A stretch of 47,887 nucleotides of DNA from the NCBI GenBank assembly GCA_903824155.1, contig CAIJVL010000035.1:1-47887 (forward strand), read 5' to 3'. The notes beneath the pieces were generated by a model that saw only the letters and a list, made by a program, of their open reading frames with translations, did no database searches and had not been told where the DNA came from. This stretch comes from Candidatus Adlerbacteria bacterium. Lineage in GTDB: Bacteria > Patescibacteriota > Minisyncoccia > Phycocordibacterales > SBAW01. The translations under genes and the position numbers were made by a program. Positions 9,469-24,030 of the stretch are shown one piece after another (positions within the stretch are counted from its first letter, which is position 1; each line of letters starts with the position of its first letter).

Positions 9469-9536
9469 TGTAATGGTTTACCCCTGTTTTTCCTTTGGGG
9501 TTACGATTCTGACGGTTCCCCATAGGGGCCTATCAG

Positions 9537-9557
9537 AAAAAAGGAGCCTTGTGAGGC
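9537..9557 (-). promoter_or_regulatory. Small hairpin plus U tract next to the predicted start in the rpsN operon leader
   Basis: The minus strand reads GCCU-CACA-AGGC-UCC-UUUUUU, starting 2 nt after the predicted +1. Confidence 0.3.
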
Positions 9558-9565
9558 GTAGAGGG

Positions 9566-9594
9566 ATACTACCACAGCCATTTGGAGAGCGCAA
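9566..9594 (-). promoter_or_regulatory. Sigma70-like promoter of the rpsN-...-secY sub-operon
   Basis: The minus strand reads TTGCGC-17 nt-TAGTAT, about 90 nt upstream of the rpsN ATG. Confidence 0.5.
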
Positions 9595-9654
9595 ACTTCC
9601 CGACTTCATGTAGATAAAGGGGTTGACTGGCCTAGGGTTTTTGTCCTCTCCTTA

Positions 9655-9683
9655 TTGACATGCAACCATTTTCAGGTTAAACT
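9655..9683 (+). promoter_or_regulatory. Sigma70-like promoter of the island-1 plus-strand gene
   Basis: TTGACA-17 nt-TAAACT, divergent from the rpsN promoter. Confidence 0.5.
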
Positions 9684-9728
9684 CGTATAGGAATAAGGAT
9701 AGCCCTGAAACAAAGACGGAGTAGACCA

Positions 9729-9983
9729 TTGTCCCCTGAGGAAAACCAGAATACCCCTCCTCTCCCCCCAGGCTTTGCCTACGGAGAGGATCTCAGCCTG
9801 AAAGAGTTAGCCATTGAAGCCATCGTGAGTGGCCTCAGAGCTACTCTCACAGAAACTCTGAAGGAAAACGAAACAATTCCGCCAGATGCTGAGCTCAGAC
9901 GCATGGCTGAAACGCAGTATGCCAAGTCGATCAAGAATGGTCTCGACGACCATCTTGGTACCGGCGTACTCCCCAAAAACTAG
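9729..9983 (+). CDS. Hypothetical protein (84 aa)
   Basis: The TTG start is 7 nt after GGAG. It has its own promoter and ends 17 nt before terminator/repeat copy A. Confidence 0.4.
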   Translation: MSPEENQNTPPLPPGFAYGEDLSLKELAIEAIVSGLRATLTETLKENETIPPDAELRRMAETQYAKSIKNGLDDHLGTGVLPKN

Positions 9984-10000
9984 TCCTTTCGTTCAAAATC

Positions 10001-10049
10001 AAAAACCCGCGCCATTCACTTGGTCGCGGGTTTTTTCTTTTCTATTTTT
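10001..10049. repeat. Direct repeat copy A (also a bidirectional terminator hairpin)
   Basis: AAAAACCCGCGCCATTCACTTGGTCGCGGGTTTTTTCTTTTCTATTTTT is near-identical to 11243-11291. Confidence 0.85.
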
Positions 10050-10095
10050 GAAATTCGTATACACTGGCAGCAGACAAATCCTTGGAGTAGTACAA

Positions 10096-10386
10096 ATGAA
10101 ATGTGATTACATGTTGCCAAGAGCCGAACATCCGCTTGTGGCATGGGAAGAGCCTTTACCCTCTTGTTTGCTCGAAGAGGGACATGAGGACTATCATCTC
10201 ATCCTTACGAGCAGCGGGTGGTACCTATTTTATCCCTACACAGAGTCGTGTGGGGATGACTGCGAGTGTGCCCAAGACACCGACTGTACCAACTACGAAT
10301 GCTTTACTTGGTGCAAAATATCCAACGCCGAAGCGCAGCAGTTGCTCAATCCGCTGAAAGCCAAAAAACCAAAACGGAGCCCCTAA
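10096..10386 (+). CDS. Hypothetical Cys-rich protein (96 aa, 8 Cys)
   Basis: ATG 10096 lies in the frame of ORF 9886..10386, 8 nt after GGAG. The C-terminal half contains SCGDDCECAQDTDCTNYECFTWC. A terminator overlaps the stop. Confidence 0.45.
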   Translation: MKCDYMLPRAEHPLVAWEEPLPSCLLEEGHEDYHLILTSSGWYLFYPYTESCGDDCECAQDTDCTNYECFTWCKISNAEAQQLLNPLKAKKPKRSP

Positions 10387-10400
10387 AGGCTCCGTTTTTT
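10373..10400 (+). terminator. Rho-independent terminator
   Basis: AACGGAGCC-CCTAAA-GGCTCCGTT followed by TTTT. Confidence 0.7.
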
Positions 10401-10461
10401 CTATATTAAATTTCGATTCAGCAGAATCGCCTACTGGGTTATTTTTTGAAGGGCGGGTTGC

Positions 10462-10494
10462 AAAAAAGAAAACCGGCTGCTTGTAAGCGGCCGG
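10462..10494 (-). terminator. Rho-independent terminator after the two-gene membrane operon
   Basis: A 10-bp stem CCGGCCGCTT/AAGCAGCCGG is followed by UUUUCUUUUUU on the minus strand. Confidence 0.6.
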
Positions 10495-10511
10495 CTATTT
10501 GTTTAGTTGGG

Positions 10512-10655
10512 CTAAAGCCAACCCAAATTGTGAGCAATAAGGACTACCGCACAAACTGAGCCTATAATCGGCCCAATCCAAGCGCTCTTATCCTTTCGGA
10601 TTTCCGGAAAGCTCTCAGCTTCCGGATAGAGAAGATAGGATATTATTTCTCGCAT
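10512..10655 (-). CDS. Putative 47-aa peptide with a C-terminal TM segment
   Basis: It is not in the ORF track. ATG is 7 nt after GGGAG and 18 nt after the upstream gene's stop. The sequence is MREIISYLLYPEAESFPEIRKDKSAWIGPIIGSVCAVVLIAHNLGWL. Confidence 0.3.
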   Translation of the reverse strand: MREIISYLLYPEAESFPEIRKDKSAWIGPIIGSVCAVVLIAHNLGWL

Positions 10656-10673
10656 TATATTTCTCCCGCAGAG

Positions 10674-11168
10674 TTAGAGGAACAACAGCCGCATCGCTCT
10701 CAAAGTCAGAAAGAGCGAATAGATTAGGCCAAAGTAGAACCCTATCGTTATTATACCGGAAATCCTGAAGATCATCGGTAGGCGAACTCTGTTTTTAAGC
10801 GCAGTAAATGCTCCTCGCTCAATATCAAGTATTGCTTCAAGCTCTGCACCGCGGAGAATAAGTGCAGTTGTTTGGTTTCTGATACCCAGATCCGTGCTGT
10901 ATATACCTAGCACGAGCAGCATACCTAAGCCAGCCGCCAAAAATCCAGCGACCGGATCCTCTGGAGCAGGATGTGGAGTAAACAGCCTGTTTTGAATTAT
11001 AGGCAACGCTGTGCGATACACATTAAACAATCCTGCTGCGATTGGCAGAGCTGCTCCCAAAACTGCAAAGCGCAGGCCTTGGAAGAAATGTAGGTCCGGA
11101 AATAGCAGACCATATTCTGTTCGGAACGTAGCCAACTGTTCTTTATGCTCTTCCCATCGGTCCGACAT
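10674..11168 (-). CDS. Hypothetical integral membrane protein (164 aa)
   Basis: ORF track 10674..11261. The first 31 codons run through the rplE terminator repeat, so the call was trimmed to ATG 11168, preceded by AGAGGAGG at 6 nt. It has several hydrophobic helices. Confidence 0.55.
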   Translation of the reverse strand: MSDRWEEHKEQLATFRTEYGLLFPDLHFFQGLRFAVLGAALPIAAGLFNVYRTALPIIQNRLFTPHPAPEDPVAGFLAAGLGMLLVLGIYSTDLGIRNQTTALILRGAELEAILDIERGAFTALKNRVRLPMIFRISGIITIGFYFGLIYSLFLTLRAMRLLFL

Positions 11169-11242
11169 TTCAACCTCCTCTGATTCGTCTAAACGTAGAA
11201 TACCACAAATATTTAGAAATGCCAATAGTCTTTCCTCATAAG

Positions 11243-11291
11243 AAAAACCCGCGCCATTCACTTGGTCGCGAGTTTTTCTTTTCTATATTTT
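11243..11291. repeat. Direct repeat copy B, which is also the terminator hairpin immediately after rplE
   Basis: AAAAACCCGCGCCATTCACTTGGTCGCGAGTTTTTCTTTTCTATATTTT. The first 28 nt are identical to copy A, followed by one mismatch and one T indel. Confidence 0.85.
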
Positions 11292-11296
11292 AAAAA

Positions 11297-14495: not shown

Positions 14496-14852
14496 TTATT
14501 TCTTTGCGGCAGTTTTAGCGGCATCAGCAGCGCCCTTGGCAGCCTGTGCAGCTGCAATTTCACCTTCTTTAGCCTTTTGCTCCATTTCCTTCTGCATTTT
14601 GCCGCCGTGGCGCTGGAACTTCTTGGTCGGAGAAAACTCGCCCAAGCGGTGCCCTACCATGTCCTCGCTTACCAAAACCTCGAGATGGGTCTTGCCATTG
14701 TAGACGCCAAACTTAAAGCCCACCATTTCCGGGGCAATCTGGCTGCGGCGCGCCCACGTTTTAATAAGCTCAGCGGTCTGAGGTTTCTTGCCCTCAATCT
14801 TCTTGAGGAGCTTCTCGTCCACGTACGGACCTTTTTTAAGTGATCGTGACAT
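14496..14852 (-). CDS. rpsS: 30S ribosomal protein S19 (Ala/Lys-rich C-terminal extension)
   Basis: ORF track 14496..15002, trimmed to ATG 14852 ([18 protein letters not shown]), the canonical S19 start. Confidence 0.95.
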
Positions 14853-14922
14853 TATGTTAAAACCCCTGTATTTGCTTGGGCGCCCTAGCTGTTTTCCCTC
14901 CCAAAGGAGCGAAAGGCCAACT

Positions 14923-14940
14923 AAAAACCCGCCAAGCGGG
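14923..14940 (-). promoter_or_regulatory. GC hairpin plus U tract next to the predicted start in the rpsS operon leader
   Basis: The minus strand reads CCCGC-UUG-GCGGG-UUUUU, starting about 3 nt after the predicted +1. It closely resembles the hairpin before rpsL. Confidence 0.4.
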
Positions 14941-14949
14941 ATTGAAGGC

Positions 14950-14978
14950 ATAGTACAGGATAGGGCGGATTTACGCAA
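14950..14978 (-). promoter_or_regulatory. Sigma70-like promoter of the rpsS-...-rplE sub-operon
   Basis: The minus strand reads TTGCGT-17 nt-TACTAT. The spacer resembles that of the rplC promoter. Confidence 0.5.
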
Positions 14979-15016
14979 GTTTTTCCACCCAAAGCACCTC
15001 AAAACATCTTAAAGCC

Positions 15017-15045
15017 TTGCAAAAATCACCAAATGTGGCATAGTT
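15017..15045 (+). promoter_or_regulatory. Sigma70-like promoter of paralog P1
   Basis: TTGCAA-17 nt-ATAGTT, divergent from the rpsS promoter. Confidence 0.4.
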
Positions 15046-15086
15046 CTGCCAGAAGACCCCGAAACGACCTACCAAAAGGAGTGGTC

Positions 15087-15362
15087 ATGCGCATCTACAA
15101 GTTCCAATACCGGCACGGGCAATCGGCTCCGTACAAAAATCTGGAAGCAACCGATCATGATGACTTCTATGCCCAGCTTGCAAGCTGGGAAAAAGATACC
15201 GGCTTTAAGCACGTGGTCGGCAGCATCAACTGCACTATAAGCGAGATAATGCACGTCCCCGAGCCGCCCAACAAAGGTGGACTCCCCTCTTCGCTTATAC
15301 GACCACATACGGTCGATCAAATAATGGCAGCGACAGGTCGGGATCGTCCCACCAACAGTTAG
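15087..15362 (+). CDS. Small orphan protein, paralog P1 of a four-member family (91 aa)
   Basis: ATG is 6 nt after AAAGGAG, in the frame of ORF 15033..15362. Family motifs YKFQYRHG and LEATDHDDFYAQLASWEK are present. It has its own terminator. Confidence 0.55.
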   Translation: MRIYKFQYRHGQSAPYKNLEATDHDDFYAQLASWEKDTGFKHVVGSINCTISEIMHVPEPPNKGGLPSSLIRPHTVDQIMAATGRDRPTNS

Positions 15363-15379
15363 GTTCTGTTCAAGAATCA

Positions 15380-15415
15380 AAAAACGCCCCGGTTTCCCGG
15401 GGCGTTTTATTTTTA
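15380..15415 (+). terminator. Terminator T1 (AACGCCCCGG-TTTC-CCGGGGCGTT plus T run)
   Basis: A perfect 10-bp GC stem plus a T run, belonging to the same hairpin family as T2-T4. Confidence 0.8.
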
Positions 15416-15495
15416 TGTGTACTTAACCGACAAACTTGCTCTTAACGGGTATTTTTGCATAATAGCTTCAGGACTGTCCATAAAAAGGAACGGTA

Positions 15496-15816
15496 ATGAG
15501 TTCATCCATCAAAGACATAGCGTACACGCTTATCTATCTTGAGCCGCGGCTCGTGAGCAGTAATCCGGTCTCGTTTGAACAGGAGATAGGAGAGCATCAC
15601 TTTACTGCCAAAGACGATGGGGACGCCCTCCGGCAAGCAGCGCGATTCTTGAAGCAGCACATCGTAAGTTGCAACCATGTCGCCCAAGGCCGCGAAGGTA
15701 AAAAGCTCGTAAGGGATTTCCCCCTCCAGATCATAAAGGACCACTTCCCCAAAGTGCCCGCTGGTCGACTGAGGGTTGGGTTATCCCAAATCCCTCCCTT
15801 AGATGGCTGCGGGTAG
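15496..15816 (+). CDS. Small orphan protein, paralog P2 (106 aa)
   Basis: ATG follows AAAGGAA. Motifs YTLIYLEP and FTAKDDGDALRQAARFLKQH are present. A promoter-like TTGCTC-16-CATAAT lies upstream, and it has its own terminator. Confidence 0.55.
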   Translation: MSSSIKDIAYTLIYLEPRLVSSNPVSFEQEIGEHHFTAKDDGDALRQAARFLKQHIVSCNHVAQGREGKKLVRDFPLQIIKDHFPKVPAGRLRVGLSQIPPLDGCG

Positions 15817-15826
15817 ACCAAACAGA

Positions 15827-15853
15827 AACGCCCCGCAAGTCGGGGCGTTTTTC
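15827..15853 (+). terminator. Terminator T2 (AACGCCCCG-CAAGT-CGGGGCGTT plus T run)
   Basis: GC stem plus a T run, nearly identical to T3. Confidence 0.8.
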
Positions 15854-15915
15854 TTGTCATTTTTGCTCAAAAGTGCAATAGTGCGAATAGTCGTTCACCA
15901 CAACGGGGTTTAGCA

Positions 15916-16149
15916 ATGCCAGAGTATAGATTTAGCTACCAGCGCGGCAGAGTCCGGGCGACGTATGGTATTACCGCTGCCAACGACAGCCATGCATTTA
16001 AAAAGATGCAGCTGTTCGTCAAACAACACATGGTCAAGTACATTAACAAGAGCATGCAACTCTTCGGCGAAGACAACCGTTGGCACTTTCTTTCCGGAGC
16101 CAAAGCGGCTACGGCGCGCCTTCCTCCAACCCTTCAAGCCGCTGAGTAA
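15916..16149 (+). CDS. Small orphan protein, paralog P3 (77 aa)
   Basis: Motifs YRFSYQRG, ITAANDSHAFKKMQLFVKQH and KYINKSMQLF are present. It has its own promoter-like site (TTGCTC-17-AATAGT) and terminator. Confidence 0.55.
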   Translation: MPEYRFSYQRGRVRATYGITAANDSHAFKKMQLFVKQHMVKYINKSMQLFGEDNRWHFLSGAKAATARLPPTLQAAE

Positions 16150-16166
16150 ATATCCCCGGCAACAAA

Positions 16167-16192
16167 AACGCCCCGCGAGTCGGGGCGTTTTC
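16167..16192 (+). terminator. Terminator T3 (AACGCCCCG-CGAGT-CGGGGCGTT plus T run)
   Basis: GC stem plus a T run. Confidence 0.8.
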
Positions 16193-16262
16193 TTTATATA
16201 TTTTCTGCCCATGGTAGAGTTGCGACAGAAGACCCTTCCCCCTTCAAACCGAGGAGTTGGCA

Positions 16263-16517
16263 ATGACTGAATATCGCTTTAGATACGCCGGCGGCACTAT
16301 CGGCAACCTGCAGACGGTACAACAGCACAAGTTCGAAGCCGAGGATGACCACGATGCCTTTACGCAAAAGGCAGCCTATCTGAAAAGCATTAGCGGCAAG
16401 TATATTACCGGGAGCATGGAAATGCACTGGCAAGGCAAGTGGCGGCCCGTCCCCGACCCGCTGTTCATTGGAGCACAACAGACAAGCATGCTTGCCCACC
16501 GCCAATTGGAGATGTAA
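16263..16517 (+). CDS. Small orphan protein, paralog P4 (84 aa)
   Basis: ATG 16263 is 6 nt after GAGGAG. The ORF track starts two codons earlier at a TTG. Motifs YRFRYAGG, FEAEDDHDAFTQKAAYLKS and KYITGSMEMH are present. Confidence 0.55.
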   Translation: MTEYRFRYAGGTIGNLQTVQQHKFEAEDDHDAFTQKAAYLKSISGKYITGSMEMHWQGKWRPVPDPLFIGAQQTSMLAHRQLEM

Positions 16518-16528
16518 CACCAGAAAAC

Positions 16529-16556
16529 AACGCCCCGTATTCTCGGGGCGTTTTTC
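16529..16556. terminator. Terminator T4, shared by convergent P4 and rplB
   Basis: AACGCCCCG-TATTCT-CGGGGCGTT has T runs on both strands. Confidence 0.8.
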
Positions 16557-16569
16557 TTTTTTATTATAT

Positions 16570-17418
16570 TTAGGCTTTCTGTCCGCGCTTGCCCACTTTG
16601 CGGCGAGAGACGATAAGGTAGTTGCTGTACTTTTTCGGCGTGCGGGTCTTTTGACCTTTGCCGGTTGGTTTACCCCACGCACTCTTGGCGCGGCGCAAAC
16701 CGCGGCCTTGGCGGCCTTCACCGCCGCCGTGCGGGTGGTCTACCGGGTTCATTGCAGTACCGCGCACCGTAGGGCGGATACCCTTCCAGCGGCTGCGTCC
16801 TGCTTTGCCGAAGACTACGAGGTGATGCTCGTCGTTAGACACCTCACCAATAGATGCCCAGCAAGTGTCGAGCACTTTGCGCACTTCGCTTGATGGCATT
16901 TTAAGGTCAGCGTAACCCTGGTCGCGTGCGATTACTTCGATGTGGGTGCCTGCCGAGCGGCCAAGCTTGCCGCCATTGCCCGGCTTGATCTCGACATTGT
17001 ATACAAACGCGCCAATTGGGACATTCTTAAGCGGCATACGGTTGCCCGGAGTTGCAGCAGCGGTTTCCGAAGTGGTGATAGTGTCGCCAACCTTTACCGA
17101 CTTGGGCAAAAGCATGTAGCGGCGCTCGCCGTCTTTGTACACCACAAGGCCGATAAAGCCCGAGCGGTTAGGATCGTACTCGACAGTCTCTACGACTGCC
17201 GGCACCATCTTTTTGTACGTAAAGTCCACATCGCGGAAGAGGCGCTTGTGTCCGCCGCCCTTGTGGCGCACGGTAATGCGGCCCGCGTTGTTGCGGCCCA
17301 CCTTGCGCTTGCCGCCCACCGTAAGAGCCTTGTGCGGCTCGGTAGCGGTAAGCTTGCCTTTAAATGTCACGGTCGACATGTGGCGGCGGGAGTCGGTGTA
17401 TGGTTTATAAGATTTCAT
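16570..17418 (-). CDS. rplB: 50S ribosomal protein L2
   Basis: The 282-aa protein is typical L2 (GRNNAGRITVRHKGGGHKR..., MNPVDHPHGGGEG). Confidence 0.97.
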   Translation of the reverse strand: MKSYKPYTDSRRHMSTVTFKGKLTATEPHKALTVGGKRKVGRNNAGRITVRHKGGGHKRLFRDVDFTYKKMVPAVVETVEYDPNRSGFIGLVVYKDGERRYMLLPKSVKVGDTITTSETAAATPGNRMPLKNVPIGAFVYNVEIKPGNGGKLGRSAGTHIEVIARDQGYADLKMPSSEVRKVLDTCWASIGEVSNDEHHLVVFGKAGRSRWKGIRPTVRGTAMNPVDHPHGGGEGRQGRGLRRAKSAWGKPTGKGQKTRTPKKYSNYLIVSRRKVGKRGQKA

Positions 17419-19334: not shown

Positions 19335-19335
19335 G

Positions 19336-19366
19336 AAAAAGGCCCACCATATAGGTCGGGCCTTTT
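19336..19366 (-). terminator. Rho-independent terminator after the 104-aa orphan gene
   Basis: GGCCCGACCU...GGUGGGCC stem plus UUUUU on the minus strand. Confidence 0.65.
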
Positions 19367-19371
19367 ACGCA

Positions 19372-19686
19372 CTACGCTTTTACCATCTCTGGAACTTTGC
19401 AGTCGATACCAAGCTCTTCGAGCTCGGAGCGCTGCGCAAATATCGAGTACAGGCGCTTGGCTTCAGGAAATTGAATCCCCTGGAAGTTAAAGGCGATGCC
19501 GCCAATGCGCTTGGTCTTCAATGTCAAAGCTTGATACTCTTTTTCGCAAGCATTGCGGATAAGGACCTCGCCTTCGACCATTTGCACATGCCGGTCAAAG
19601 TAGCAAAAGCCGATCTTTTCGCGGTCTTCGGCACGGCGGTCAAAATGCCGCTGCAACTCTTGTACCAACTCACCCATATCGCTCAT
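19372..19686 (-). CDS. Hypothetical protein (104 aa)
   Basis: ATG is 6 nt after GGGGAGGA. A promoter-like TTGCCA-17-TAGTGT lies upstream, and terminators lie on both sides. Confidence 0.5.
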   Translation of the reverse strand: MSDMGELVQELQRHFDRRAEDREKIGFCYFDRHVQMVEGEVLIRNACEKEYQALTLKTKRIGGIAFNFQGIQFPEAKRLYSIFAQRSELEELGIDCKVPEMVKA

Positions 19687-19742
19687 GTAGTCCTCCCCTT
19701 TTCGTCTGCCTGCACACTACGCCGTTGTTGGAATTTTGGCAA

Positions 19743-19772
19743 GAAAAAAGCCCCGACCAACATGCAGGGGCT
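19743..19772 (-). terminator. Rho-independent terminator after the 134-aa membrane gene
   Basis: AGCCCC...GGGGCU stem plus UUUUUU on the minus strand. Confidence 0.65.
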
Positions 19773-19778
19773 TTAGTC

Positions 19779-20183
19779 TCACCCTTCGATTTCGTTGACG
19801 TATCGAAACTCCTTGCGGGAGTATCTGTGGTACAGGAGACCGGTGATACTCATGGCGATGAGCGAGAGCGCTGTCCCAAAAACCGTCAAAGTCTCATGCG
19901 CGTGCATGCGCACCGAGTCTGACATAGCGATCGAGTTCCAGCCTAGAATCAGTGGGACAAAAAGCGACCCCAGAAGACAGGCGAACGAAATAATGAAGAG
20001 CCTGCCGCATCGTTTCTTTGCGCGGGTGAATATCGCCATGCCCGTATAGCGCACTTCGGCTTGCGGCGTCAGATGCCGCCATGTGCGGTAGTTGTAGTAC
20101 ACGATGCCGCCAACGAGTGCGATCACGGGGATGTTGAGCATCAACCCCAAAACAACAGAGCGGTCGAACAGCAAGTCCCACAT
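19779..20183 (-). CDS. Hypothetical integral membrane protein (134 aa, about 4 TM)
   Basis: ATG is preceded by CGGAGGGAAGGGA, and the protein has hydrophobic helices. It lies between the rpsJ terminator and the next terminator. Confidence 0.5.
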   Translation of the reverse strand: MWDLLFDRSVVLGLMLNIPVIALVGGIVYYNYRTWRHLTPQAEVRYTGMAIFTRAKKRCGRLFIISFACLLGSLFVPLILGWNSIAMSDSVRMHAHETLTVFGTALSLIAMSITGLLYHRYSRKEFRYVNEIEG

Positions 20184-20231
20184 ATCCCTTCCCTCCGGTT
20201 GAGTAGATCCAATCTGCCCCTACCCTACAAC

Positions 20232-20261
20232 AAAAAATCCCCTCTTGCGAGGGGATTTTTT
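20232..20261 (-). terminator. Rho-independent terminator directly after rpsJ
   Basis: AAAAAATCCCCTC-TTGC-GAGGGGATTTTTT. Confidence 0.8.
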
Positions 20262-20273
20262 GTTTGCTTTTGA

Positions 20274-21937: not shown

Positions 21938-22080
21938 AAATAATATGAATCTAGTGAATAATACTAATTAATATGCCCCAACTAATCTACCTAGCACGCC
22001 AAACCCAAGCATAGGGAAAACCCTTCTGCTGTGTTAGTAGCATAGTAGCAGAGGACCTAAAAAGTGCAAGCGATTGGGGC

Positions 22081-23118
22081 CTATAACCCGAGCATCGAGA
22101 GCGATGCGGTCAGCAAGCGGCCGTAGCCGTCGCCTATTTCGTTGATAGCTTCGATAACACTAGCCGAATTTGAGGTGTTGTTGTAGTAGGTGACCGGAGT
22201 CGTGGTAGGAGCGGGTGCTTTAGGAGGAGGCGGCAGCATAGGACCATGGTACTCGGTCGAAGAACCCATAGGCTCGCCTGTATGCGGCAGAGTGCTAGAG
22301 CCCATAGTTGTAGAACCTATACCCGGATGGAAATCGTCGTGACGGGGCGGCATAGGAAGAGTGGTGCTGCCCATCATGGTGCTAGAACCCATAGCCGGAT
22401 GAAAATCGTCGTGACGGGGCGGCATAGGAAGAGTGGTGCTGCCCATCATGGTGCTAGAACCCATACCGTCGCCCTCATTCCCTTTTAAGAGGCTGCTGTC
22501 ATGCGAGGTTGGGTTGCAGAGGCGGGCTATTGCGGCGCGGGTCAAGGGGCCTGCAAACGGTGCCGGCGATATACCCTGCTCTTGTTGAAATTTCTCCAAA
22601 AAGGCTTGTGTGGTCGAGCCAAAATGGCCGGTAACCACATCATCTTTGTTAAGGCCAAAGTGGTTGGCGATAAACTGCTGGAGCTGGCCTACGTCGCCGG
22701 TAGTAGTGCCCTCGCTGGTACCGCGGCCGATGGTGCGCGACAATTTAGGGCAAAATAGAACCGTTGAGCTGGCCGTACCAATAGTGGTAGAGCCGTTTGC
22801 CATGGGTACAGACATCATGCCAGGAGCTTGGTGATTGTCTTCGGCAAGTACTATCGTCGCAGTTTGTGCAACCATTTGATTAGAGGCCGATTGCTGAGCA
22901 AAAGCAACTTCCATATTGACGCCGGCAGCTGCAACGCCAAGCGTTGTGATCAAAGAAGAAACTACCAAGCCAAAGACGGCCAATGAGCCAATGACTATAT
23001 GCGTAATGTCTTGGGTCCAGACCTCGCTCTTAAAATTAGGCGTAATGTCCATGGTCATAAAATTGACCACGTGCGGCGTGATGTCCTTGGTCCAAATTGA
23101 TTCGCGGCTTTTTGTCAT
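22081..23118 (-). CDS. Membrane-anchored protein with a peptidoglycan-binding (PG_binding_1-like) domain and a Met/His/Ser/Thr-rich tandem-repeat tail
   Basis: It has a TM helix (IVIGSLAVFGLVVSSLITTLGVAAA). The PG-binding-like segment is GDVGQLQQFIANHFGL...GHFGSTTQAFLEKFQQEQGI. The tail is repetitive. Confidence 0.6.
   Translation of the reverse strand: MTKSRESIWTKDITPHVVNFMTMDITPNFKSEVWTQDITHIVIGSLAVFGLVVSSLITTLGVAAAGVNMEVAFAQQSASNQMVAQTATIVLAEDNHQAPGMMSVPMANGSTTIGTASSTVLFCPKLSRTIGRGTSEGTTTGDVGQLQQFIANHFGLNKDDVVTGHFGSTTQAFLEKFQQEQGISPAPFAGPLTRAAIARLCNPTSHDSSLLKGNEGDGMGSSTMMGSTTLPMPPRHDDFHPAMGSSTMMGSTTLPMPPRHDDFHPGIGSTTMGSSTLPHTGEPMGSSTEYHGPMLPPPPKAPAPTTTPVTYYNNTSNSASVIEAINEIGDGYGRLLTASLSMLGL
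22325..22468. repeat. Tandem 72-bp repeat (2 near-identical copies) inside the 345-aa ORF
   Basis: Copy 22325-22396 versus 22397-22468 differ at about 3 positions. Each encodes ~MGSSTMMGSTTLPMPPRHDDFHPx. A degenerate third unit lies at about 22261-22324. Confidence 0.9.
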
Positions 23119-23246
23119 ATTTTTAAAAGTGCAGCTACTAAATAAAACTAATAAATAAGAAGAGCACCCCAGCTTGCGCGGGGTGCCCTGTTGCTAACTA
23201 GTGTAGCGCGGCTTACAAACTCTGCAAGGAGTAGGCTGGGGATAAA

Positions 23247-23459
23247 CTACTGCTTCCAGATGCTGGCGGGCGCAGAAACGGCTGACTGGCTCTCATACGA
23301 CCGGGCATTAGCTATGGCCGCAGCTTCGGTCTTATTGCTAAACAAGGCCATATCCCCGCGTTTTTCAAACTCATTGGCTCCTTGCAGGATAAGAAAGGCG
23401 CCAGCATAAAAAACGGCAAAGATTGCGAGTACTGCAAATAATTTAAAGAAAGTGCGCAT
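23247..23459 (-). CDS. Hypothetical small membrane protein (70 aa)
   Basis: It has an N-terminal TM helix (FKLFAVLAIFAVFYAGAFLIL) and is followed by a 3' UTR module with a terminator. There is no SD. Confidence 0.35.
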   Translation of the reverse strand: MRTFFKLFAVLAIFAVFYAGAFLILQGANEFEKRGDMALFSNKTEAAAIANARSYESQSAVSAPASIWKQ

Positions 23460-23610
23460 AGCAGAGTAAGGAACAATCTGATAATCGGAACGCGGACGGA
23501 TCTAAAACAACCAGCACATACGAAAAGCGCGCCCAGCTTTCGCTGGGCGCCCTATGTACTTACTGTACTCTTCATCCGCAACAATACAACCGCGCGGCTG
23601 GGGATAAGAT

Positions 23611-23979
23611 TTATTCTTCTTTGCTCGGGATTCTATTTAGTCCGCCGTCTTTATCCATTTTAAATACTGCGCGTCCTGCTTCTATATCCTTTGTAAGTGA
23701 CGCCTGATCAATGGTTTCTTGCTTCTCTGATTGTGTTTCGTCTCCTAAAGAAACCTCGCGCTTTGCGTCTATATCGCTTTTAAGCGCCGTTTTATTAATA
23801 TCTTCGGGCCTCGCCACCAGCTTTTCGGTAGCTAAAGGAATACCAGGAGTCGCCATAACTTTACCAACCGGACTTGCGACGGCCATTGCCGCCCCCAATG
23901 CAACGCCAATATGCTTTGCAGCTTTCTTTGCATCTTGCTTTATATCTTCCTTGGACGGTATTTTTGGTGCTCCTTCCAT
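23611..23979 (-). CDS. Hypothetical protein (122 aa, Lys/Glu-rich)
   Basis: TATACT lies 7 nt upstream of the ATG, so the transcript may be leaderless. The gene is followed by the second copy of the 3' UTR module. Confidence 0.4.
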   Translation of the reverse strand: MEGAPKIPSKEDIKQDAKKAAKHIGVALGAAMAVASPVGKVMATPGIPLATEKLVARPEDINKTALKSDIDAKREVSLGDETQSEKQETIDQASLTKDIEAGRAVFKMDKDGGLNRIPSKEE

Positions 23980-24030
23980 GACCTAAAGTATACACCCACC
24001 ACTTTGCAACTTCATCTTTGGTGTGCTTTT

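What the first reader, a model, noticed from the sequence alone, without database searches (positions are those of the whole stretch)
15010..16562. Tandem array of four paralogous, individually transcribed small genes lies antisense between rplB and rpsS
Four consecutive plus-strand ORFs lie at 15087-15362, 15496-15816, 15916-16149 and 16263-16517 (91, 106, 77 and 84 aa). Each has a -35/-10-like site and an SD-like purine tract, canonical for P1 and P4 and weaker for P2 and P3. Each also has its own terminator of one shared form, AACGCCCCG-n4-6-CGGGGCGTT plus a T run (T1-T4).

The proteins share an N-terminal strand-like motif:
- P1: YKFQYRHG
- P2: YTLIYLEP
- P3: YRFSYQRG
- P4: YRFRYAGG

They also share a core motif:
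- P1: LEATDHDDFYAQLASWEK
- P2: FTAKDDGDALRQAARFLKQH
- P3: ITAANDSHAFKKMQLFVKQH
- P4: FEAEDDHDAFTQKAAYLKS

P3 and P4 further share KYI-x-x-SM. This looks like a gene-plus-terminator module amplified four times and then diverged. I do not recognise the family. The strand-strand-helix pattern with an acidic D-x-x-A turn loosely recalls HicB/UPF0150-type small alpha/beta domains, but that is a guess. Four independently expressed diverged copies next to the ribosome genes suggest a modulator or decoy set, for example ribosome-associated, anti-phage or host-interaction factors.
Basis: partly seen in the sequence, partly recalled or inferred. Interest (0 to 1): 0.72.

Follow-up and report, generated by a model that had tools for sequence, protein, structure and literature searches.

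The report
Swappable-tail small-protein cassettes splitting a ribosomal operon
Four real, separately transcribed small genes sit backwards between two ribosomal-protein genes of an ultra-small (CPR) bacterium. They belong to an undescribed protein family that always occupies this slot in related genomes, and its C-terminal tails are exchanged wholesale between near-identical strains; what the proteins do is still unknown.

Summary
Four + strand ORFs lie between rplB and rpsS. Each has an extended -10 promoter, a Shine-Dalgarno site and a strong two-way terminator hairpin of one form, found nowhere else in the window.

The four proteins are true paralogues and real genes (dN/dS 0.09-0.57; core pLDDT above 90). 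They are not a recent amplification. They represent four old subtypes, three of which have counterparts in the slot of other lineages.

An exhaustive profile search finds about 50 clusters of this family. It has no match in Pfam, NCBIfam, PHROGs, PADLOC or the PDB, and no significant fold match. All 15 related contigs examined (about nine lineages, some contigs duplicates) carry it at the same place, antisense between rplB and rpsS, in one to four copies.

The core is a roughly 60-residue beta-beta-alpha-beta-beta domain that usually ends in VPEP. The tail after VPEP is replaced entirely between strains whose flanks are 97-100% identical.

The HicB guess is not supported. Function is unknown. 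My best inference is polymorphic binding or recognition modules. The rivals are accessory factors of the gene-expression machinery and peptide precursors.

The parts
14496..14852 (-). rpsS (S19) coding sequence. It is the first gene of the downstream ribosomal-protein transcription unit and is transcribed divergently from cassette 1.
   Evidence: ORF list. Gene calls with Pfam Ribosomal_S19 on the identical contig L001.
14951..14979 (-). Inferred rpsS promoter: TTGCGT (14979-14974), a 17-nt spacer, then TACTAT (14956-14951) preceded by TG.
   Evidence: Read from the sequence. Equivalent hexamers stand upstream of rpsS in L083 and in the cassette-free relative L003. Inferred, not measured.
14928..14940 (-). 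Small GC hairpin plus T run at the 5' end of the inferred rpsS leader.
   Evidence: Terminator-like site. The fold is weak, -8.2 kcal/mol with z -1.2. A similar CCCGCCAAGCGGG is present in L090.
15017..15086 (+). Cassette 1 promoter and leader: -35 TTGCAA (15017-15022); extended -10 TGgCATAGT (15036-15044); conserved CAGAAGACCC (15050-15059); Shine-Dalgarno AAGGAG (15076-15081).
   Evidence: Sequence. Cross-lineage footprint alignment A9.
15087..15362 (+). P1, 91 aa, P1-type family member. The core runs to VPEP and is followed by a 31-residue tail.
   Evidence: Family HMM E 6e-26. About 60% core identity to the P1-type genes of L101 and L083, with dN/dS 0.26-0.40.
15255..15266 (+). GTCCCCGAGCCG, the VPEP codons of P1 at the core-tail boundary.
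   Evidence: Codon choice is conserved across lineages. This is the left breakpoint of tail replacement in the relatives.
15381..15415 (.). T1, a two-way intrinsic terminator.
   Evidence: Folds at -22.2 kcal/mol on the + strand and -23.2 on the - strand.
15436..15495 (+). Cassette 2 promoter: TTGCTC (15436-15441), a 16-nt spacer, CATAAT (15458-15463); Shine-Dalgarno AGGA (15486-15489).
   Evidence: Sequence. The same TTTTTGCATAAT stands upstream of the P2-type gene in L093.
15496..15816 (+). P2, 106 aa, the divergent P2-type member. It has a longer first hairpin and no VPEP.
   Evidence: Family HMM E 6e-8. Counterpart at L093:5599-5895 with 46% core identity.
15824..15857 (.). T2, a two-way terminator.
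15854..15915 (+). Cassette 3 promoter: TTGTCA, a 17-nt spacer, AATAGT with an upstream TG (15854-15882); weak Shine-Dalgarno GGGG.
   Evidence: Promoter scan.
15916..16149 (+). P3, 77 aa, P3-type member (MPEYRFSY...).
   Evidence: Family HMM E 1e-19. P0005 is 66% identical. Counterpart at L093:6001-6336.
16165..16197 (.). T3, a two-way terminator.
16193..16262 (+). Cassette 4 promoter and leader: weak -35 TTTATA; extended -10 TGgTAGAGT (16212-16220); CAGAAGACCC (16225-16234); Shine-Dalgarno GAGGAG (16251-16256).
   Evidence: Direct repeat D3 shared with the cassette 1 promoter. Footprint alignment.
16263..16517 (+). P4, 84 aa, P4-type member. The core ends in VPDP and is followed by an 18-residue tail.
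   Evidence: Family HMM E 6e-26. AlphaFold2 model with mean pLDDT 83.9 and most of the core above 90. A P4-type gene occupies the same slot in L113.
16449..16460 (+). GTCCCCGACCCG, the VPDP codons of P4.
   Evidence: Repeat D4.
16529..16562 (.). T4, a two-way terminator that also ends the rplB transcript arriving on the - strand.
   Evidence: The rplB stop codon is 8 nt away.
16570..17418 (-). rplB (L2) coding sequence, the last gene of the upstream S10-L3-L4-L23-L2 unit, convergent with cassette 4.

Best explanation
**What it is (shown).** The four ORFs are real genes of an undescribed, clade-restricted family of small cytoplasmic proteins.
- Each protein has a compact core of about 60 residues with beta-beta-alpha-beta-beta topology. 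The core usually ends in VPEP or VPDP and is followed by a disordered C-terminal tail of 0 to about 60 residues.
- Each gene is a self-contained cassette: an extended -10 promoter, a Shine-Dalgarno site, the gene, and a strong hairpin terminator.
- The cassettes fill a fixed slot that splits the S10 ribosomal-protein operon between rplB and rpsS.

**How the locus works (inferred from sequence).**
- The cassettes are transcribed away from a separate rpsS promoter and towards rplB.
- The two-way hairpins end each cassette transcript and the rplB transcript, and keep antisense transcription out of the ribosomal genes.
- The conserved core and VPEP codons on one side of the tail, and the conserved hairpin on the other, provide homology for recombination. 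This lets whole tails, and whole cassettes, be replaced, deleted or fused.

**What the proteins do (inferred, least certain).** The core is a constant handle under purifying selection. The exchangeable tail is a short peptide module that sets binding specificity. The wholesale turnover of tails between near-identical strains points to a recognition or conflict role (immunity-like, antitoxin-like or partner-mimicking) rather than a housekeeping ribosomal role.

**Confidence by part.**

| Part | Confidence |
|---|---|
| Anatomy and evolution | about 0.9 |
| Locus mechanics | about 0.6 |
| Recognition or conflict role | about 0.35 |
For: **Real genes and a real family.**
- The exhaustive profile search gives 57 representatives at E <= 1e-3. 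About 50 are 57-178 aa proteins matching profile positions 1-62.
- Core dN/dS is 0.09-0.57.
- The AlphaFold2 model from 55 sequences has mean pLDDT 83.9, with most of the core above 90.

**Fixed slot.** All 15 related contigs examined, from about nine lineages, carry the family antisense between rplB and rpsS, in 1 to 4 copies.

**Cassette signals.**
- The promoter footprint is invariant across 12 cassettes.
- The hairpins fold at -18 to -23 kcal/mol on both strands.
- They occur only at this junction in the window and in the related loci scanned.

**Tail exchange.**
- In L107, L109 and L110 the promoter, core and downstream DNA are 97-100% identical. The segment between GTCCCCGAGCC and the hairpin is non-homologous in all three.
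- The same pattern shows at the protein level: P0060 against P0061, and P0037, P0064 and P0065.
- L109 has an extra cassette bounded by hairpins.
- L112 is a fusion of cassette 1 codons 1-14 to cassette 2.

**Tails as independent modules.** The GTFSPEA...AFFAHK...LTPLQKRMQSGGA tail also exists as free-standing 55-79 aa proteins.

**Conflict flavour.**
- The same junction holds MazE-MazF, a Y1 transposase and other unrelated cargo in other Paceibacteria.
- A free-standing tail-module protein in an alphaproteobacterial MAG directly follows an arginine ADP-ribosyltransferase-like gene in a region rich in toxin-antitoxin genes.

**Other roles unlikely from the sequences.** None shows a signal peptide or a membrane segment.
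Against: - There are no transcript, proteome or interaction data.
- No partner gene (toxin, enzyme or transporter) sits next to the cassettes. Each cassette is monocistronic.
- The core evolves no faster than the less constrained ribosomal proteins. P1-type cores are about 60% identical where L4 and L23 are 61-73% and 59-64%. Only the tails, not the cores, show conflict-like turnover.
- All carriers belong to one narrow clade (L2 identity 86-90%). Positional conservation could therefore be simple vertical inheritance.
- Isoelectric points range from 4 to 11, so there is no shared charge character.
- The ADP-ribosyltransferase neighbour concerns a distant relative of one tail module (E 1e-4), and none of the window's four proteins carries that module.
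- Part of the synonymous conservation of the VPEP codons may be codon context: CCC-GAG-CCG also encodes PEP in EF-G and NusA.
Confidence: 0.45

Rival explanations
1. The proteins are accessory factors of the gene-expression machinery. The conserved core docks on RNA polymerase or the ribosome, as the small beta-beta-alpha-beta proteins RNAP epsilon (YkzG/RpoY) and T7 Gp2 dock on RNA polymerase. The tails tune that interaction. The position inside the ribosomal gene cluster would then reflect shared regulation.
For: - The slot inside the ribosomal cluster is strictly conserved, in all 15 contigs examined.
- Free-standing tail-module proteins in two further Paceibacterota lineages also sit in ribosomal-cluster slots: L099 antisense between rplB and rpsS, and L101 between rpsJ and rplC.
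- The top-ranked PDB fold matches are RNAP epsilon (6wvk_E, probability 0.80; 4njc_A, rmsd 3.2 over 58 columns, TM 0.54) and T7 Gp2 (4lk0_M, TM 0.61).
- Members with almost no tail exist (P0040, P0012, P0011), so the core works on its own.
- The core is under purifying selection.
Against: - All fold matches have E >= 0.27, and TM scores are unreliable for 60-residue proteins.
- hhalign against epsilon and against Gp2 gives probability below 1%.
- The genes are antisense to, and insulated from, the ribosomal operons.
- Copy number varies from 0 to 4, and different lineages keep different subtypes.
- L003, with L2 85% identical, has an empty slot.
- The same slots hold plainly unrelated cargo in relatives, so position alone is weak evidence.
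Confidence: 0.2
2. The proteins are precursor peptides. The folded N-terminal domain would be a long leader or recognition domain, VPEP/VPDP a processing site, and the variable tail the released product (signal peptide, bacteriocin-like peptide or RiPP core). Tail alleles would act like pherotypes.
For: - A conserved N-terminal region is followed by a sharp conserved boundary and then a hypervariable C-terminal peptide.
- The paralogues lie in tandem.
- Tails are replaced wholesale between near-identical strains, as in polymorphic bacteriocin or pheromone loci.
- Many tails end in a hydrophobic residue, then E/Q/D, then small residues, often GG: 21 of 72 against 6.2 +/- 2.4 in shuffles. The pattern was defined after looking at the data.
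Against: - No modifying enzyme, peptidase-transporter or immunity gene lies in or beside any of the arrays.
- Several members have no tail or only 2-6 residues.
- The tails are hydrophilic and poor in Cys, Ser and Thr.
- A 60-residue domain predicted to fold confidently is unusual for a leader.
- Tail modules are themselves conserved across lineages and also exist as independent proteins with their own N-terminal extensions.
Confidence: 0.12
3. The cassettes are functionless or selfish cargo of an insertion hot spot. They persist because the break between two ribosomal transcription units tolerates insertions, and they give the cell no benefit.
For: - The rplB-rpsS gap is 537-4055 nt with unrelated cargo in other Paceibacteria, against 6-200 nt in the other bacteria and other CPR lineages sampled.
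- One close relative, L003, has an empty slot.
Against: - Core dN/dS is 0.09-0.57.
- About 50 sequence clusters share conserved motifs.
- Promoters, Shine-Dalgarno sites and terminators are conserved across lineages.
- Four subtypes have been kept as intact genes in one roughly 1-Mb-class genome.
- No transposase or integrase is associated with the cassettes, and there are no matches in viral contigs, phage records or, for the tail module, plasmid records.
Confidence: 0.05
4. One reading: a recent fourfold amplification of one gene-plus-terminator module, encoding HicB/UPF0150-like small alpha/beta proteins that act as ribosome-associated decoys.
For: The four are paralogous and share one terminator form.
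Against: - Counterparts of three of the subtypes occur separately in other lineages, so the duplications are old.
- Pairwise identity among the four is only 24-32%.
- There is no HicB signal in Pfam or in Foldseek.
Confidence: 0.03

Closest known systems
Polymorphic toxin loci (CdiA-CT with its VENN boundary; Rhs with its PxxxxDPxGL boundary)
   Same: A constant N-terminal part is followed by a short conserved boundary motif and then a C-terminal part that is replaced wholesale by recombination between close strains. Conserved DNA at the boundary provides the homology for the exchange.
   Different: - The variable part here is a 0-60 residue disordered peptide, not a folded toxin domain of 100 residues or more.
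- No immunity gene follows it.
- The proteins are about 60-180 aa, cytoplasmic and lack a delivery domain.
- No toxin domain is detected.
Leader-plus-variable-core precursor arrays (double-glycine bacteriocin and pheromone precursors; NHLP and Nif11 RiPP precursors; prochlorosins)
   Same: Tandem paralogues share a conserved N-terminal region and hypervariable C-terminal peptides. The peptide part is polymorphic between strains.
   Different: - No maturation, export or immunity genes are nearby.
- The N-terminal part is predicted to be a stable folded domain.
- Some members lack a tail.
- Each gene has its own promoter and terminator.
RNA polymerase epsilon subunit (YkzG/RpoY) and phage T7 Gp2
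   Same: All are proteins of about 60-70 residues with a beta hairpin, a helix and further beta strand(s). These are the best-ranked solved structures for the model.
   Different: - There is no detectable sequence relationship: hhalign probability below 1% and no Pfam RpoY hit.
- Foldseek E-values are 0.27-1.2.
- Binding to RNA polymerase has not been tested.
Integron gene-cassette arrays
   Same: An array of same-direction cassettes, each ending in an imperfect palindrome of one shared form. Cassette number varies between relatives, and indel boundaries fall at the palindromes.
   Different: - No integrase is present.
- The palindromes are 24-28 nt GC hairpins with T runs, which is the form of an intrinsic terminator, not 57-141 nt attC sites.
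- Every cassette has its own promoter.
- The array is fixed in one chromosomal slot of one clade.
HicB/UPF0150 antitoxin domain
   Same: A small alpha/beta protein.
   Different: No sequence hit and no fold hit. No hicA partner gene is called next to any of the arrays.

Membership tests
HicB / UPF0150 | Sequence match to the HicB or UPF0150 Pfam models | tested here: not met
   hmmscan of P1-P4 at E <= 10 gives no HicB or UPF0150 hit. None of the 55 family members hits at E <= 0.1.
HicB / UPF0150 | Adjacent hicA toxin gene | tested here: not met
   All cassettes are monocistronic between terminators. The only neighbours are ribosomal genes, family members or unrelated ORFs.
RNAP epsilon (RpoY/YkzG) and T7 Gp2 | Detectable sequence homology | tested here: not met
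   hhalign of the family profile against B. subtilis epsilon, against a 3-sequence epsilon alignment and against Gp2 gives probability 0.04-0.23%.
RNAP epsilon (RpoY/YkzG) and T7 Gp2 | Same fold | tested here: inconclusive
   These are the top-ranked Foldseek PDB hits, but E is 0.27-1.2 and TM (by target length) 0.44-0.61.
RNAP epsilon (RpoY/YkzG) and T7 Gp2 | Binds RNA polymerase | not testable with these tools
   This needs pull-down experiments or prediction of complexes.
Polymorphic toxin systems (CDI, Rhs) | Constant N-terminal part, conserved boundary motif and a recombining variable C-terminus | tested here: met
   The boundary is VPEP/VPDP. Identical cores carry unrelated tails.
Polymorphic toxin systems (CDI, Rhs) | C-terminal toxin domain with a cognate immunity gene immediately downstream | tested here: not met
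   The tails are 0-63 residues and disordered. No toxin or immunity family is detected. A terminator follows each gene.
RiPP, bacteriocin or pheromone precursors | Conserved leader and variable core peptide | tested here: inconclusive
   The architecture is compatible. However, tail-less members exist and the leader is predicted to be a folded domain.
RiPP, bacteriocin or pheromone precursors | Nearby modification enzyme, peptidase-transporter or immunity gene | tested here: not met
   None in the window's 47.9 kb gene map or in the flanks of the related loci.
Integron cassette array | Integrase (intI), attI site and attC sites | tested here: not met
   The flanks are ribosomal-protein genes. 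The palindromes are 24-28 nt terminator hairpins.
Type II antitoxins and immunity proteins | Match to known antitoxin, immunity or defence models | tested here: not met
   PADLOC gives nothing. In Pfam there are only chance-level Imm33, Imm7 and AbiGi hits at E 0.04-0.11.
Known RNA families | Rfam match at the gathering score in the array | tested here: not met
   There are 0 matches in the window. The sub-threshold hits in 14700-16700 all sit on the terminator hairpins.

The most novel reading that the evidence does not exclude
The slot between rplB and rpsS is a dedicated diversity-generating locus of an episymbiotic CPR clade.
- A conserved docking domain, possibly binding RNA polymerase or the ribosome as Gp2 and epsilon bind RNA polymerase, carries short peptide modules.
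- The modules are swapped by recombination at a conserved VPEP-coding site and at the terminator hairpin.
- Strains can thereby re-specify a recognition or conflict interaction (self against non-self, phage or host) in a single recombination event.
- Linked hot spots elsewhere in the ribosomal gene cluster (rpsJ-rplC, rpsN-rplE) would serve the same purpose.
Probability: 0.15. Interest if true: 0.85.

Novelty: categorically new. Interest (0 to 1): 0.63.

Why it matters
CPR bacteria make up a large share of bacterial diversity, and most of their lineage-specific genes have no known function.

Here one such family gets a defined domain, clear boundaries, signals consistent with its own expression, and a reproducible genomic address. 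It also shows a striking behaviour: whole C-terminal peptides are exchanged between strains that are otherwise nearly identical.

The work also shows that, in this group, the usually invariant S10 ribosomal operon is split at rplB-rpsS. That break, like two others in the cluster, serves as a hot spot for variable genes.

If the tails set binding specificity, this is a compact natural system for swapping peptide modules on a fixed scaffold. It would also be a handle on strain-level recognition or conflict in organisms that cannot yet be cultured.

If the core binds RNA polymerase or the ribosome, it would be a new class of modulators of gene expression in reduced genomes.

Tried and rejected
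**Searches for known relatives that found nothing.**
- Pfam, PHROGs, NCBIfam and PADLOC scans of P1-P4: nothing below E 0.1.
- Pfam on all 55 family members: only chance hits.
- PDB sequence search with the family profile: nothing below E 0.5.
- Foldseek against the PDB and against viral models: no match at E <= 0.001. The viral hits are all uncharacterised small phage proteins at E >= 0.03.
- The epsilon and Gp2 lead: rejected at sequence level by hhalign.

**Tests of a phage or plasmid origin.** The viral-contig scan and tblastn of a core protein against phage records gave no matches. tblastn of a free-standing tail-module protein against plasmid records also gave none.

**Alternative readings of the hairpins.**
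- REP/RAYT-type repeats were considered because L014 carries a Y1 transposase at this junction. This was rejected because the hairpin form occurs only at this junction in 47.9 kb and in every related locus scanned.
- Rfam found no family at its gathering score. All the weak hits are terminator look-alikes.

**Searches that fell short.**
- The word-indexed protein search missed nearly the whole family, returning only the four proteins themselves plus P0005. The exhaustive search was needed.
- Three large repetitive proteins in that search (P0006, P0038, P0043) are spurious repeat matches.
- Two related-loci runs failed because the alignment was too diverse.
- Four literature searches found no description of genes between rplB and rpsS in CPR. 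The one candidate paper, PMC9132574, concerns a different locus.

**An idea I weakened.** I considered whether GTCCCCGAGCCG is a pure DNA-level signal. The case is weaker than it first looked, because CCC-GAG-CCG also encodes PEP in EF-G and NusA.


Full report
**1. The observation**

The window carries the ribosomal-protein supercluster on the minus strand. The gene order runs secY ... S8, S14, L5 ... S3, L22, S19, then L2, L23, L4, L3, then S10, EF-Tu, EF-G.

Each ORF is followed by AACGCCCCG-N(3-8)-CGGGGCGTT plus a T run.
- This form occurs four times in 47.9 kb, only here, with 0 expected.
- The hairpins fold at -18 to -23 kcal/mol on both strands.
- All have an A run upstream and a T run downstream, so they look like two-way terminators.

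The proteins are significantly related.
- P4 against P1, P2 and P3 gives local-alignment z-scores of 8.6-9.7.
- P2 against P3 gives 5.5.

**2. Organism and family**

The best rplB match among species-representative genomes is a Minisyncoccia (Paceibacteria-class, CPR) MAG at 85% identity. Identical copies of the array occur in two other assemblies of the same population.

No Pfam, PHROGs, NCBIfam or PADLOC model matches the four proteins. The word-indexed protein search found only the four proteins themselves and one counterpart of P3.

The exhaustive profile search found 57 representatives at E <= 1e-3.
- About 50 are 57-178 aa proteins that match the first 62 profile positions.
- Three are spurious repeat proteins.

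The family consensus is MPEYRFxY-G(Q)S(M)P-x5-A-DDxDAF-x6-F/W-x-K-x2-G-x-YV-x-GS-x9-VP(E/D)P.

Four subtypes are recognisable, and the window has one of each.

| Subtype | Found elsewhere in |
|---|---|
| P1-type | L083, L086, L089, L090, L096, L101, L107-L111 |
| P2-type | L093 |
| P3-type | L093 |
| P4-type | L113 |

Sources. The array is therefore a set of old paralogues, not a recent amplification.

**3. Coding evidence and structure**

Core dN/dS between P1-type genes, and between the window's P3 and its L093 counterpart, is 0.09-0.57.

AlphaFold2 with the 55-sequence alignment gives mean pLDDT 83.9, with most of the core above 90.
- Strands span 2-13 and 16-26, a helix 29-43, and strands 53-56 and 59-62.
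- The tail is disordered.

There is no significant structural neighbour.
- The top PDB matches are RNAP epsilon (YkzG) and T7 Gp2, at E 0.27-1.2 and TM 0.44-0.61.
- The viral library gives only uncharacterised small phage proteins.
- hhalign against epsilon and Gp2 gives probability below 1%.
- The PDB sequence search is empty.

No HicB signal appears anywhere. Isoelectric points range from 4 to 11. None of the sequences shows a signal peptide or a membrane segment.

**4. Genomic address**

Every family member whose context I could read lies antisense between rplB and rpsS: P0059, P0044, P0068, P0032, P0014, P0046 and P0009, the member found by chance in L101, and six metagenome contigs.
- That is all 15 contigs examined, from about nine lineages, with one to four family genes each.
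- These genomes have L2 86-90% identical to the window, but L4 only 61-73%.
- One relative at similar distance, L003, has an empty 171-nt slot holding only an rpsS promoter.

In more distant Paceibacteria the same junction is also enlarged, to 537-4055 nt against 6-200 nt in the other bacteria and other CPR lineages sampled. It holds unrelated and mostly sense-strand cargo there: DUF5674, MazE-MazF, a diacylglycerol-kinase-like protein, and a 1007-aa protein with a Y1 transposase.

So the split of the S10 operon at rplB-rpsS is old in this group, and the break is a hot spot. In the window's clade the occupant is this family.

**5. Cassette signals**

An alignment of 12 cassette upstreams from different lineages and subtypes shows:
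- an invariant extended -10, TG-n2-A-n-AGT;
- a conserved CAGA(A/C)GAC a few bases downstream;
- GGAG upstream of the ATG;
- CTTGCAAAA at -35 in P1-type cassettes.

The cassette 2 promoter is shared with the P2-type gene of L093.

The CGCCCCGG...CCGGGGCG hairpin follows every cassette in every lineage, including cassettes that carry unrelated ORFs. It is absent from the rest of each 5-15 kb locus and from the rest of the window.

On the minus strand the hairpins would stop the rplB transcript. A TTGCGT-17-TACTAT promoter stands upstream of rpsS. Separate transcription of each cassette, and of rpsS, is inferred from these conserved signals. It has not been measured.

**6. Tail exchange**

L107, L109 and L110 are 97-100% identical through the rpsS side, the promoter, the whole core and the DNA beyond the terminator. 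The segment between GTCCCCGAGCC(G/A)GCGG and the hairpin is unrelated in the three, encoding three different tails. L109 also has an extra cassette whose boundaries fall exactly at hairpin ends.

The same pattern appears at the protein level.
- P0060 and P0061 share a core but have different tails.
- P0037, P0064 and P0065 share one core with three tails.
- P0042 and P0063 share one core with two tails.

L112 carries a fusion of the first 14 codons of cassette 1 to cassette 2.

Tail motifs recur on unrelated cores:
- PEYLLHAKKMADPSKPFVY;
- LAPGEYDLAAAARDGIRMPGLSILEG;
- AEAEMANRIG;
- ASTYEPEYVGFG;
- AFFAHK...LTPLQKRMQSGGA.

The VPEP codons are unusually uniform: GTC 9/11, CCC 10/11, GAG 10/10, CCG 11/11. 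Other conserved residues show about 0.6 for the top codon. CCC-GAG-CCG also encodes PEP in EF-G and NusA, so codon context may contribute.

**7. The tail module as an independent protein**

A profile of the AFFAHK...LTPLQKRMQSGGA tail finds free-standing 55-79 aa proteins, 37 of them at E <= 1e-3 among 71 at E <= 10. They have no Pfam, NCBIfam or PHROGs match.
- In two other Paceibacterota lineages they also sit in ribosomal-cluster slots. One is antisense between rplB and rpsS (L099). One is between rpsJ and rplC in L101, whose rplB-rpsS slot carries a P1-type family member.
- In an alphaproteobacterial MAG the homologue directly follows an arginine ADP-ribosyltransferase-like gene (PF01129, 27 bits against a cut-off of 22.3), in a region rich in toxin-antitoxin genes.
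- None of the window's four proteins carries this module.

**8. Interpretation**

Shown:
- This is a new family with a confidently predicted small domain, a fixed address, conserved cassette signals, purifying selection on the core, and recombinational replacement of tails and cassettes.

Inferred:
- The hairpins insulate the ribosomal units.
- Together with the core and VPEP region, they give the homology that allows replacement.

Least certain is the role.
- Tail turnover between near-identical strains, the modular mixing of short motifs, the hot-spot setting and the ADP-ribosyltransferase neighbour favour a recognition or conflict function. My estimate is about 0.35.
- Against this: the core evolves no faster than L4 or L23, no partner gene is adjacent, and the fixed position may be plain inheritance.

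**9. Novelty**

No curated family, solved structure or paper found here describes these proteins or genes at this junction.

The combination has no counterpart I could identify: a fixed antisense slot in the S10 operon, self-contained cassettes, and peptide-scale tail swapping on a constant domain. The nearest analogies (polymorphic toxins, leader-plus-core precursors, integron arrays) each fail on defining features.

I rate it categorically new as a family and as an arrangement. The caveat is that its function, and therefore the kind of system it belongs to, is not established.

Noticed in passing
Loci L004-L016, compared with window 14853-16569: In other Paceibacteria (L2 63-74% identical) the rplB-rpsS gap is 537-4055 nt. 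It holds unrelated, mostly sense-strand cargo: DUF5674, MazE plus MazF, a diacylglycerol-kinase-like protein, and a 1007-aa protein with a Y1 (IS200-like) transposase. In the other bacteria and other CPR lineages sampled the gap is 6-200 nt.
   Followed up: partly
window 9469-11296; 19335-20273; 21938-24548: The ribosomal cluster has further variable islands of unannotatable ORFs. In the window they lie between rpsN and rplE (about 1.8 kb), between rplC and rpsJ (104-aa and 134-aa ORFs), and between EF-Tu and EF-G (a 345-aa peptidoglycan-binding-domain protein and a 122-aa ORF). The content of the first two slots differs in every related locus (L083, L086, L093, L094).
   Followed up: partly
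window 14853-14985 (- strand): rpsS appears to have its own promoter (TTGCGT, 17 nt, TACTAT) and a leader of about 90 nt that begins with a small GC hairpin plus T run. A similar hairpin is present in L090 and L093. This could be a stabilising 5' stem or a regulatory leader of the new S19-led operon.
   Followed up: no
P0071-P0141; loci L099, L101, L103-L106: There is a second undescribed small-protein family of 55-79 aa, with the pattern KG-x-FSPEA...AFFAHKK...LTPLQ(K/R)RMQSGG(A/P). It is free-standing in Paceibacterota, again inside ribosomal-cluster slots. In an alphaproteobacterial MAG it lies immediately downstream of an arginine ADP-ribosyltransferase-like gene among toxin-antitoxin pairs, which suggests a neutralising partner.
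   Followed up: partly
window 15255-15266 and 16449-16460; equivalent sites in L083-L111: The VPEP codons are nearly invariant at synonymous positions (GTC CCC GAG CCG) across lineages and paralogues. This is also exactly the left breakpoint of tail replacement. It is not settled whether this is a DNA or RNA signal or a codon-context effect.
   Followed up: partly
L112:3001-3333, compared with L109:213-883: This is a natural fusion. The first 14 codons of a P1-type cassette are joined in frame to the second cassette of the array, as expected from recombination between the similar 5' ends of neighbouring paralogues.
   Followed up: partly
C-termini of the family proteins, including window P2 (PPLDGCG), P3 (PTLQAAE) and P4 (RQLEM): Many tails end in a hydrophobic residue, then E/Q/D, then small residues, often GG or AA: 21 of 72 against 6.2 +/- 2.4 in shuffles. 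The pattern was chosen after looking at the data. It might be a shared C-terminal docking or degradation signal.
   Followed up: partly
L083:8371-8691, L086:8342-8863, L096:707-1066 and 1185-1712: Cassettes carrying unrelated ORFs of 106, 173, 119 and 175 aa, with no family match, sit in the same arrays and end in the same hairpin form. The cassette format is therefore not tied to one protein family.
   Followed up: partly
window 15910-16263 (- strand) and 15033-15086, 16257-16262: A 117-aa ORF antisense to P3 is a shadow ORF. The longer mechanical ORFs for P1 and P4 read through their own promoters. Some database members with long N-terminal extensions (P0023, P0028, P0053) are probably the same kind of start-site miscall.
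   Followed up: partly
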